64,000 nucleotides of DNA from Escherichia coli (lineage in GTDB: Bacteria; Pseudomonadota; Gammaproteobacteria; Enterobacterales; Enterobacteriaceae): the NCBI RefSeq assembly GCF_044647545.1, contig NZ_CP172818.1; one strand, given 5' to 3'. How positions within the stretch are numbered: position 1 is the stretch's first letter; each line of letters begins with the position of its first letter. Position numbers and translations under genes: made by a program. A model generated the notes under the pieces. The model saw nothing but the letters and a program-made list of their open reading frames with translations, did no database searches and was not told where the DNA came from. Positions 58,229-58,816 of this stretch are shown here, in pieces.

Positions 58229-58570
58229 ATGAACCAGTTTTATGTTCACGTTCGTCTATTTGAAGACACAGCCGAACAGACCAAAAAATTTGAAGAATTA
58301 ATGCTTAACTTTCTGTACCAGAAAACAGTTAAAGAGTCTGACGATAGCTGCTGCAGACTGATTCCAGAGGGATATATCCTCAAAAGTACAATGAACTGCC
58401 AACAAATCCTTGATCAAACATTTTCAATTGCTAACAGTGCCGGTGTTGACGCAAATATATTTGTCTGTAAATTTGAACAAAGCGCATGCTTACTTCCGTC
58501 TGCTTCCTTAGTTGGTAACGATTTCGTTCATTACGATCTTACGCCTAAGCCCATCAAGCTCGATTCTTAA
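58229..58570 (+). CDS. ymfI: e14 uncharacterized protein (113 aa from ATG at 58229)
   Basis: ORF track 58184..58570; MNQFYVHVRLFEDTAEQTKKFEELMLNF. Confidence 0.75.
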   Translation: MNQFYVHVRLFEDTAEQTKKFEELMLNFLYQKTVKESDDSCCRLIPEGYILKSTMNCQQILDQTFSIANSAGVDANIFVCKFEQSACLLPSASLVGNDFVHYDLTPKPIKLDS

Positions 58571-58816
58571 AGCCTTAACCATTGTGTCGTGATAAACACG
58601 GCTCACCTTCTCTCCATTGCATGGCAGAGGGGTGAGTGTGTTAGCCATGAAATTCATGAACTCGGTTCGACCAGGGGCTTGCGCCCCGCAAGTCTTTAAT
58701 GCCTGTTTTGCTAACAAAATGCGGGCCTCAGTGCCTGCATTTGGCTCTATCTGCTGCAAACGTTTAGCGTCTTCCAGCAACAATGCGATCACATGCTTCA
58801 AATTCTGCTCATTCAT
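58508..58816 (-). CDS. ymfJ: e14 uncharacterized protein
   Basis: ORF track 102 aa; 3' end overlaps ymfI convergently by 63 nt. Confidence 0.7.
   Translation of the reverse strand: MNEQNLKHVIALLLEDAKRLQQIEPNAGTEARILLAKQALKTCGAQAPGRTEFMNFMANTLTPLPCNGEKVSRVYHDTMVKALRIELDGLRRKIVMNEIVTN

What the first reader, a model, noticed from the sequence alone, without database searches (positions are those of the whole stretch)
58229..58816. Convergent ymfI/ymfJ pair with 63-nt 3' overlap
Two small uncharacterised genes face each other and overlap by 63 nt at their 3' ends (58508-58570). Each mRNA is therefore antisense to the other's 3' coding end, an arrangement that allows mutual antisense interference. 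Both are unassigned e14 early-left genes.
Basis: seen in the sequence. Interest (0 to 1): 0.35.

Follow-up and report, generated by a model that had tools for sequence, protein, structure and literature searches.

The report
Conserved convergent ymfI–ymfJ prophage cassette
Two small genes of the e14 prophage really do face each other and share 63 bases, but this is an already annotated arrangement; the new points are that they travel together as a cassette in many prophages and that YmfI looks like the RNA-cutting antitoxin GhoS.

Summary
ymfI (58229-58570, +) and ymfJ (58508-58816, -) overlap by 63 nt, exactly as RefSeq annotates E. coli K-12, and the pair is already listed as a convergent "excludon". 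The overlap length itself is unremarkable: about 35% of synonymous resamplings give 20 or more open antisense codons.

What exceeds chance is conservation. All 35 related viral loci keep the tail-to-tail pair, and more distant relatives keep it with overlaps of 4 to 72 nt.

ymfJ is the first gene behind the CohE-controlled early-left promoter and is strongly SOS-induced. ymfI points against that operon and appears to have its own conserved extended -10 promoter, so it is not an early-left operon gene.

YmfI models as a ferredoxin-like fold. Its best solved-structure match is GhoS, and distant relatives pass Pfam's GhoS threshold. However, GhoS's key Arg28 aligns to Glu and there is no GhoT-like partner.

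YmfJ-type proteins have interchangeable heads but share a C-terminal helix module that always accompanies ymfI.

Mutual antisense silencing is possible but unsupported: ymfI rises about 4-fold when ymfJ rises about 27-fold.

My best reading is a two-protein cassette whose overlap is mostly a by-product of tight packing. Interest is modest.

The parts
58229..58570 (+). ymfI coding sequence (113 aa). Residues 1-92 form a GhoS/Cas2-like ferredoxin-fold domain. Residues 93-113 are a low-confidence tail that distant relatives lack.
58508..58816 (-). ymfJ coding sequence (102 aa). Residues 1-42 are head module 'a'. Residues 61-102 are a C-terminal module (ITPLPC..RVYHDTMVKALRIE.. helix) that is always found with ymfI.
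   Evidence: The AF2 model is all-helical, with helix 73-101 at pLDDT 79-92 and pTM 0.28. Codon-position variability for residues 61-82 is 0.091/0.078/0.224. YmfJ peptides or protein have been reported.
58508..58570 (.). The 63-nt region read in both directions, in exact antisense codon register. It covers ymfI codons 94-113 plus stop, and ymfJ codons 83-102 plus stop.
   Evidence: Distinct codon variants seen across relatives: 12 change both proteins, 8 are silent in YmfI only, 6 are silent in YmfJ only, and 2 are silent in both.
58155..58228 (+). Nearly invariant leader upstream of ymfI, read as a candidate promoter. The -35 is TTCACC (58166-58171) and the extended -10 is TGgTATGCT (58185-58193). 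An inverted repeat ACCAC-N10-GTGGT spans 58169-58188, and the Shine-Dalgarno AAGGAA lies at 58218-58223.
   Evidence: Almost no variation across 25 distinct sequences. The same leader precedes YmfI-like genes in distant loci (L042, L045, L046) and other + strand cargo ORFs (L003, and a second copy in L045). The promoter assignment was read from the sequence. The consensus scan did not call it because it matches only 8 of 12 positions.
58924..58951 (-). PL-type promoter that drives ymfJ: TTGACA, 16-nt spacer, CATAAT (11 of 12 matches).
   Evidence: It is overlapped by the operator copies listed in the next part.
58908..58944 (.). Two 17-bp operator copies of the form TGTAYC-N5-GGTACA (58908-58924 and 58928-58944). 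The same motif occurs three times between cohE and croE (59683-59699, 59700-59716, 59733-59749).
   Evidence: Repeat families D1 and D2.
58960..58979 (-). Intrinsic-terminator-like hairpin with a T run, directly after cohE. It separates repressor transcription from PL and ymfJ.
58991..59665 (-). cohE/ymfK, a CI/LexA-type repressor with an S24 peptidase domain.

Best explanation
ymfI and ymfJ form one conserved two-gene prophage cassette that sits directly left of the early-left promoter.

Shown by sequence and literature:
- ymfJ is the first gene transcribed from the CohE-repressed PL-type promoter. It is nearly silent in the lysogen and strongly induced late in the SOS response.
- ymfI is a real protein-coding gene on the other strand.
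- YmfI has a GhoS/Cas2-like ferredoxin fold.
- ymfI always occurs together with the C-terminal helix module of YmfJ-type proteins, whatever head module those proteins carry.

Read from the sequence only, without any mapped 5' end: ymfI has its own conserved extended -10 promoter.

Inferred:
- The two products are functional partners under separate control.
- YmfI is made in the lysogen and counteracts or tunes YmfJ. The more likely route is binding of YmfJ's C-terminal helix. A less likely route is action on the ymfJ mRNA, as GhoS acts on ghoT mRNA.
- The 63-nt coding overlap is mainly a consequence of packing two convergent genes with no spacer or terminator. It adds unavoidable antisense pairing between the transcripts but is not itself the main device.
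For: PL assignment: an 11/12 promoter lies directly after the cohE terminator. It is overlapped by two copies of the 17-bp operator, which also occurs three times in the cohE-croE intergenic region. ymfJ is induced late together with intE and ymfM at about 4.8 log2 units, and YmfJ protein was detected.

ymfI is a real gene: codon-position variability is 0.062/0.040/0.187. It has PHROG and NCBIfam families, and its upstream leader is nearly invariant.

Cassette behaviour: the 35 close loci keep the pair. A Rac-like Salmonella prophage keeps it with a 42-nt overlap. A YmfI relative about 50% identical to e14 YmfI keeps it with a 14-nt overlap. At least four unrelated heads are joined to the same C-terminal module. 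The part of that module outside the overlap shows a coding signature in the ymfJ frame (0.091/0.078/0.224), so it is selected as protein.

Overlap length varies among relatives (4, 14, 42, 63 and 72 nt), and the e14 value is within chance expectation.
Against: No interaction or activity has been tested.

YmfI itself gives no Pfam hit even at an E-value limit of 10. GhoS Arg28, the residue reported as most important for its RNase activity, aligns to the nearly invariant Glu22 of YmfI.

No GhoT-like hydrophobic ORF of 30 aa or more was seen in the ORF list (read by eye).

Physical linkage alone would also make the YmfJ C-terminal module co-inherit with ymfI.

The most distant relatives have other partners: L045 has a 66-aa partner without the module, and L048 faces a DNA methyltransferase gene.

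Within the overlap both frames look about equally constrained (8 variants silent in YmfI only, 6 silent in YmfJ only). The YmfI tail may therefore be functional rather than a by-product.

No PADLOC defence model matches either protein.
Confidence: 0.4

Rival explanations
1. The two genes are unrelated neighbours in a variable prophage slot. One is an early gene and the other is a lysogen-expressed gene inserted in the opposite direction. The overlap and the antisense pairing have no function.
For: The overlap length is within chance and varies from 4 to 83 nt among cassettes in the same slot. The same slot holds other unrelated convergent pairs: L002 has an ECs1072-family gene facing a 68-aa gene, and L003 has an 81-aa ORF facing a 91-aa gene. 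ymfI is not down-regulated when PL fires.
Against: The YmfJ C-terminal module accompanies ymfI across four different heads, across e14-like and Rac-like prophages, and down to about 50% YmfI identity. The ymfI stop (TAA or TAG) is kept opposite a rare TTA or CTA Leu83 codon in every sequence of the 63-nt type.
Confidence: 0.3
2. The convergent overlap is itself the device: an excludon in which each transcript silences the other, by transcriptional interference or by cleavage of the RNA duplex. That would give mutually exclusive expression in the lysogenic and induced states.
For: Overlapping transcripts are recorded in most MG1655 transcriptomes. No terminator-like sites separate the genes, so the duplex could span hundreds of bases. 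Convergent overlapping pairs are the rule in this slot.
Against: Two SOS data sets, one made with a stranded kit, show ymfI rising by 1.8-2.0 log2 units while ymfJ rises by about 4.8. That is not reciprocal behaviour. An RNA-only device would not need the conserved protein motif of the YmfJ C-terminal module. The overlap sequence itself is not conserved in distant pairs.
Confidence: 0.2
3. The overlap is an annotation artefact. Either ymfI or its last 20 codons are not translated, or ymfJ ends earlier than annotated.
For: The NCBIfam and PHROG models of YmfI stop at residues 90-93. The YmfI tail has low AF2 confidence and is absent from distant relatives. No YmfI protein detection was found in the papers read.
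Against: The ORF lengths are conserved at 112-113 aa across Escherichia, Klebsiella, Raoultella, Enterobacter and Salmonella. Changes silent for YmfI are at least as frequent in the overlap as changes silent for YmfJ. The YmfJ C-terminal helix is the best-predicted part of YmfJ.
Confidence: 0.05

Closest known systems
GhoS/GhoT type V toxin-antitoxin system of E. coli (Pfam PF11080; structure 2LLZ)
   Different: YmfI itself gives no Pfam GhoS hit. GhoS Arg28 aligns to Glu22. The partner is a 102-aa soluble helical protein, not a small membrane peptide. The genes are convergent and separately controlled rather than co-transcribed as ghoS-ghoT (operon order from established knowledge). The setting is a prophage immunity region. 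RNase activity is untested.
Excludons and convergent-promoter interference (for example Listeria excludons, and the face-to-face pR/pL promoters of coliphage 186; from established knowledge)
   Same: Convergent genes whose transcripts overlap. One of them belongs to the lytic programme. The pair is already listed by ExcludonFinder.
   Different: The reciprocal expression that defines a working excludon is not seen in the available SOS data. Here the coding regions themselves overlap, and a conserved protein module travels with the partner gene.
Lysogen-expressed accessory genes ('morons') next to the repressor in lambdoid phages, such as lambda rexAB and sieB (from established knowledge)
   Same: The cassette lies beside the immunity region in a slot whose content varies between related prophages. 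ymfI appears to have its own promoter, independent of the early operon.
   Different: ymfI is antisense to, and overlaps, the first early-left gene. No exclusion or defence function is known, and no PADLOC model matches.
Cas2 (CRISPR adaptation protein)
   Different: No sequence similarity was found, there is no CRISPR context, and the score is weaker than for GhoS.

Membership tests
GhoS family (Pfam PF11080) | The protein scores above the Pfam gathering threshold (21 bits). | tested here: not met
   YmfI gave no Pfam family at E-value limits of 1 and 10. Distant relatives found with the YmfI profile do pass: P0161 at 28.8 bits and P0157 at 24.2 bits. The link is therefore indirect.
GhoS family (Pfam PF11080) | A small ferredoxin-like fold like GhoS and Cas2. 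| tested here: met
GhoS family (Pfam PF11080) | Direct sequence-profile similarity to E. coli GhoS. | tested here: inconclusive
   hhalign of the YmfI family against GhoS alone gave probability 3.2% and E 0.014, though in the structurally expected register. A profile search against PDB sequences gave no hit. The 98.6% probability comes from an alignment that mixes GhoS with the bridging sequences, so it is partly circular.
GhoS family (Pfam PF11080) | Arg28, reported as the most important residue for endoribonuclease activity (PMC4010927). | tested here: not met
   In the alignment, GhoS Arg28 falls on YmfI Glu22, which is nearly invariant. The bridging relatives have His there.
Type V toxin-antitoxin system (GhoST) | An adjacent, co-transcribed small membrane toxin (GhoT-like). 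| tested here: not met
   No hydrophobic small ORF was seen among ORFs of 30 aa or more in 56500-60500 (read by eye; shorter ORFs were not examined). The conserved partner is the convergent, helical YmfJ.
Type V toxin-antitoxin system (GhoST) | The antitoxin cleaves the toxin mRNA. | not testable with these tools
   This needs an RNase assay of YmfI on ymfJ RNA.
Excludon | Neighbouring opposite-strand genes with overlapping transcripts. | tested here: met
   The coding regions overlap by 63 nt. The pair is listed in the MG1655 core excludome. No terminator-like sites lie between the genes.
Excludon | Mutually exclusive (reciprocal) expression. | tested here: not met
   ymfI rises by 1.98 and 1.82 log2 units when ymfJ rises by 4.83 and 4.76. 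One library was made with a stranded kit. This is published data only. Leakage of antisense reads cannot be excluded.
Early-left (PL) operon of a lambdoid prophage | The gene lies on the leftward strand downstream of the repressor-controlled promoter and is induced when the repressor is cleaved. | tested here: met
   This holds for ymfJ: promoter and operators and late SOS induction. It does not hold for ymfI, which is on the + strand and appears to have its own promoter.
Known anti-phage defence systems (PADLOC-DB 2.0) | A match to a defence-system protein model. | tested here: not met
   No family matched YmfI, YmfJ or the alternative cargo proteins at an E-value limit of 0.1.

The most novel reading that the evidence does not exclude
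YmfI and YmfJ are a new prophage two-component module related to type V toxin-antitoxin systems. A GhoS-fold protein made in the lysogen neutralises an early-left effector, recognised through its conserved C-terminal helix or the mRNA that encodes it. Convergent, overlapping transcription from PL provides the switch at induction or superinfection. The slot left of PL would then be a hotspot for such convergent cassettes, since at least three unrelated pairs occupy it.
Probability: 0.15. Interest if true: 0.65.

Novelty: new variant of a known kind. Interest (0 to 1): 0.38.

Why it matters
The overlap as reported is ordinary: it is annotated in K-12 and already catalogued as an excludon.

The follow-up gives two uncharacterised K-12 genes a concrete, testable frame. 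YmfI would be one of the few GhoS-like proteins outside the single known type V system. It sits in a different genetic arrangement, with a different partner and without the reported catalytic arginine. Testing it would show whether the GhoS fold is a general RNA- or protein-targeting module of prophages.

ymfJ is among the most strongly SOS-induced transcripts in K-12 and is the first early-left gene of e14, yet it has no known function. Knowing its partner narrows the experiments needed.

The recurring convergent pairs behind one conserved leader suggest a cargo slot in lambdoid prophages that is worth systematic study.

Tried and rejected
1. I first thought the overlap was a K-12-specific read-through of ymfI, because the NCBIfam and PHROG models end at residues 90-93. 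I rejected this for the e14 clade: homologues from five genera are 112-113 aa and keep the tail. It holds only for the wider family, whose distant members are 92-96 aa.

2. A codon-level test to decide which protein 'owns' the overlap gave no winner: 8 variants were silent in YmfI only and 6 in YmfJ only.

3. Direct sequence links from YmfI to GhoS failed. These were Pfam on YmfI, a profile search against PDB sequences and hhalign against GhoS alone. The search for GhoS homologues returned only close E. coli relatives, so no deep GhoS alignment could be built.

4. YmfJ gave no credible Pfam or PDB sequence match. Its AF2 model has pTM 0.28, so no fold search was attempted on it.

5. A Foldseek search of the YmfI model against viral structures gave nothing with E of 0.001 or better. 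The afdb50 library was not available.

6. RNA folds of the ymfJ 5' leader and of the + strand downstream of ymfI were not more stable than shuffles, with z-scores of -1.1 and -1.6.

7. A tblastn search with YmfI found no match in 50,697 phage records.

8. Mehta et al. 2004 on e14 could not be read, and the ExcludonFinder supplements are not held.

Full report
**Observation.**
The ORF listing gives ymfJ at 58508..58816 (-), 102 aa. It also lists a + strand ORF ending at 58570. The annotated ymfI start inside that ORF is the ATG at 58229, which gives 113 aa and is preceded by AAGGAA at 58218-58223. The genes share 58508-58570, 63 nt. RefSeq annotates the same geometry in a K-12-like genome. Window 58150-58990 is 100% identical to MG1655, and 302 of 5,426 complete E. 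coli genomes carry at least 80% of that stretch.

The two frames are in exact antisense register. The ymfJ stop TAA lies opposite ymfI Leu94 TTA, and the ymfI stop TAA lies opposite ymfJ Leu83 TTA.

**Is the overlap more than chance?**
The length is not. In this register only TTA, CTA or TCA codons in ymfJ can stop ymfI. These make up 4.1% of local codons, and 35% of synonymous resamplings of ymfJ leave 20 or more codons open.

The conservation is. A scan of viral contigs with a YmfI alignment returned 35 loci at 70-100% identity. All show the same tail-to-tail geometry. Of the 33 distinct stretches, 32 give a complete convergent ymfJ-type ORF, and one (L030) ends too early to call. The overlap is 63 nt in most, 72 nt in three and 42 nt in one.

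**Surroundings.**
- cohE/ymfK (58991-59665, -) is an S24-peptidase repressor.
- cohE ends in a terminator-like hairpin at 58979-58960.
- Directly after it lies an 11/12 sigma-70 promoter on the - strand: TTGACA, 16-nt spacer, CATAAT, at 58951-58924.
- This promoter is overlapped by two copies of a 17-bp motif, TGTAYC-N5-GGTACA. The same motif occurs three times between cohE and croE. That is the classic OL/OR layout.

ymfJ is therefore the first gene of the repressor-controlled early-left operon. The literature agrees:
- ymfJ is induced late in the SOS response together with intE and ymfM, at log2 4.83, and YmfJ protein appears.
- ymfJ is up in HU-deficient and dam-deficient cells.
- ymfJ rises by log2 4.76 with an SOS-inducing siderophore-ampicillin conjugate.

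No terminator-like site lies on the - strand between the ymfJ stop and 57870. I infer that the PL transcript reads through the whole of ymfI in antisense, towards xisE and intE.

**ymfI.**
It is a genuine coding gene. Across 25 distinct sequences, variability at codon positions 1/2/3 of codons 1-93 is 0.062/0.040/0.187. It has its own PHROG and NCBIfam families.

The 75 nt upstream (58155-58228) are almost invariant. I read them as a promoter: -35 TTCACC, a 16-nt spacer, and an extended -10 TGgTATGCT. This is 8 of 12 consensus matches, below the scan's cut-off.

The same leader precedes YmfI-like genes in distant loci. It also precedes other + strand cargo ORFs in the same slot. ymfI is therefore not part of the early-left operon.

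**YmfI fold and family.**

A profile search of 1.84 billion representative proteins found only 16 hits. Eight of them are 92-96-aa relatives that lack the tail. Two of these pass Pfam's GhoS threshold (28.8 and 24.2 bits against a cut-off of 21), and four more match weakly.

The direct tests failed:
- YmfI itself gives no Pfam hit.
- A YmfI-family profile does not find GhoS among PDB sequences.
- hhalign against GhoS alone is insignificant, although in the expected register.
- The 98.6% hhalign result uses an alignment that contains the bridging sequences, so it is partly circular.

GhoS Arg28, reported as its most important catalytic residue, aligns to YmfI Glu22. I conclude that YmfI is a distant GhoS-fold relative. 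I do not assume it is an RNase.

**YmfJ and the cassette.**
YmfJ models as helices only: 3-23, 29-43, 48-60 and a well-predicted 73-101, with pTM 0.28.

Its first 42 residues form a very conserved head. The same head is found on many phage and prophage proteins with unrelated C-termini. In the three phage genomes inspected, the matching gene lies on the repressor's strand, one to three genes downstream of the repressor gene.

Conversely, YmfJ-type partners of ymfI carry at least four unrelated heads. They share the C-terminal module ITPLPCxGxxVxRVYHxTMVKALRIE.... The part of this module outside the overlap (residues 61-82) shows a coding signature in the ymfJ frame, 0.091/0.078/0.224.

The pairing persists outside the e14 type:
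- In a Rac-like Salmonella prophage, a 99-aa YmfI relative overlaps its partner by 42 nt.
- In loci whose YmfI relative is about 50% identical to e14 YmfI, the overlap is 14 nt and the partner keeps ITPRPCDGVSRVYHDTMVKALRI.

The most distant GhoS-positive relatives are still convergent with a leftward gene, but the partner differs:
- A 66-aa protein without the module, with a 4-nt overlap.
- A DNA methyltransferase gene, with a 48-nt gap.

**Selection inside the overlap.**
Distinct codon variants among relatives fall into four classes: 12 change both proteins, 8 are silent only for YmfI, 6 are silent only for YmfJ, and 2 are silent for both. Among all possible single changes the counts are 95, 33, 33 and 2. 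Both frames look moderately and about equally constrained. The numbers are too small to say more.

**Antisense interference.**
The pair is in the MG1655 core list of convergent excludons. With overlapping coding regions, that follows as soon as both genes are expressed.

The + strand has no terminator-like site between the ymfI stop and 58887. I infer that ymfI transcripts may cover all of ymfJ.

The defining behaviour, reciprocal expression, is not seen. ymfI rises by 1.98 and 1.82 log2 units when ymfJ rises by 4.83 and 4.76. One of these libraries was made with a stranded kit. Leakage of antisense reads could explain the apparent rise in ymfI. Even so, the data give no support for silencing.

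**Mechanism.**
I commit to a partner model with confidence 0.4. The cassette encodes two interacting products under separate control, and the overlap is a packing by-product that adds some antisense coupling. YmfI, made in the lysogen, most likely counteracts YmfJ through YmfJ's C-terminal helix. Less likely, it acts on the ymfJ mRNA.

The rivals are:
- Unrelated neighbours in a variable slot (0.3).
- The excludon itself as the device (0.2).
- An annotation artefact (0.05).

**Comparison with what is known, and novelty.**
The arrangement resembles three known things: GhoS/GhoT in fold, excludons in geometry, and lysogen-expressed accessory genes in position. It fails defining tests for each:
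- For GhoS/GhoT: no Pfam hit, no Arg28 equivalent and no GhoT-like partner.
- For excludons: no reciprocal expression.
- For defence systems: no matching model.

The reported overlap is already known. The GhoS-fold assignment, the obligate pairing with a YmfJ C-terminal module, and the recurrent convergent cassettes behind one leader did not turn up in the full-text searches I ran. I rate the finding as a new variant of a known kind, with interest 0.38.

Noticed in passing
window 57922-58137 (-), within the 'ymfH' ORF 57785-58105 (-): A full-length match to the prophage sRNA family STnc100 (RF02076) scores 39.5 bits, below the gathering score of 47, with E 1.8e-6. The ymfH ORF over it shows no codon-position signal (0.080/0.102/0.087) and differs from the K-12-like copy by single-base indels. 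It is probably an RNA element rather than a protein gene. The element occurs in about 2,780 of 5,426 complete E. coli genomes. A 2026 preprint links STnc100 to PasD sRNAs.
   Followed up: partly
window 57798-58070: This segment differs by about 8% from the e14 copy in a K-12-like genome (L001) but is about 99% identical to the copy in an unrelated prophage (L003). The flanks, including ymfI-ymfJ, are identical to K-12. It looks like a recombination patch. No complete genome in the collection matches 57763-58150 over its full length at more than 96.9%.
   Followed up: partly
window 58155-58228; L003 3370-3427; L042, L045, L046 upstream of their YmfI-like genes: A conserved leader, GCCTGTCTTTTCACCAC..GGTGGTATGCT..CAAGGAAA..ATG, with an inverted repeat between the putative -35 and -10, precedes different rightward cargo genes in different prophages. 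One copy (the second copy in L045) shows a compensatory CCGC/GCGG change in the repeat.
   Followed up: partly
L003 3428-3673 (+) against 3591-3866 (-); L002 3459-3893 (+) against 3865-4071 (-): Other cassettes in the same slot are also convergent overlapping pairs. One is an unannotated 81-aa ORF facing a 91-aa gene, with an 83-nt overlap. The other is an ECs1072-family gene facing a 68-aa gene, with a 29-nt overlap.
   Followed up: partly
window 58908-58944 and 59683-59749: Five copies of a 17-bp palindromic motif, TGTAYC-N5-GGTACA, are arranged like OL (two copies) and OR (three copies) around cohE. They are presumably the CohE operators.
   Followed up: partly
proteins P0119 and P0131 (133 aa) and others: The first early-left proteins of these prophages are built from short interchangeable modules. 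The heads are 'a' (ELKHVIALLLEDAKRLQQIEPNAGTEARI), 'b' (MESPKEP..) and 'c/d' (MEFKDLP..QEIAA..AFV.LY). Some proteins carry 'c' followed by 'a'.
   Followed up: no
window 58229-58570 (expression data from the literature): ymfI transcript abundance rises about 4-fold late in the SOS response, although the strongly induced PL transcript should run antisense through it. The cause is unexplained. It could be real induction or leakage of antisense reads.
   Followed up: no
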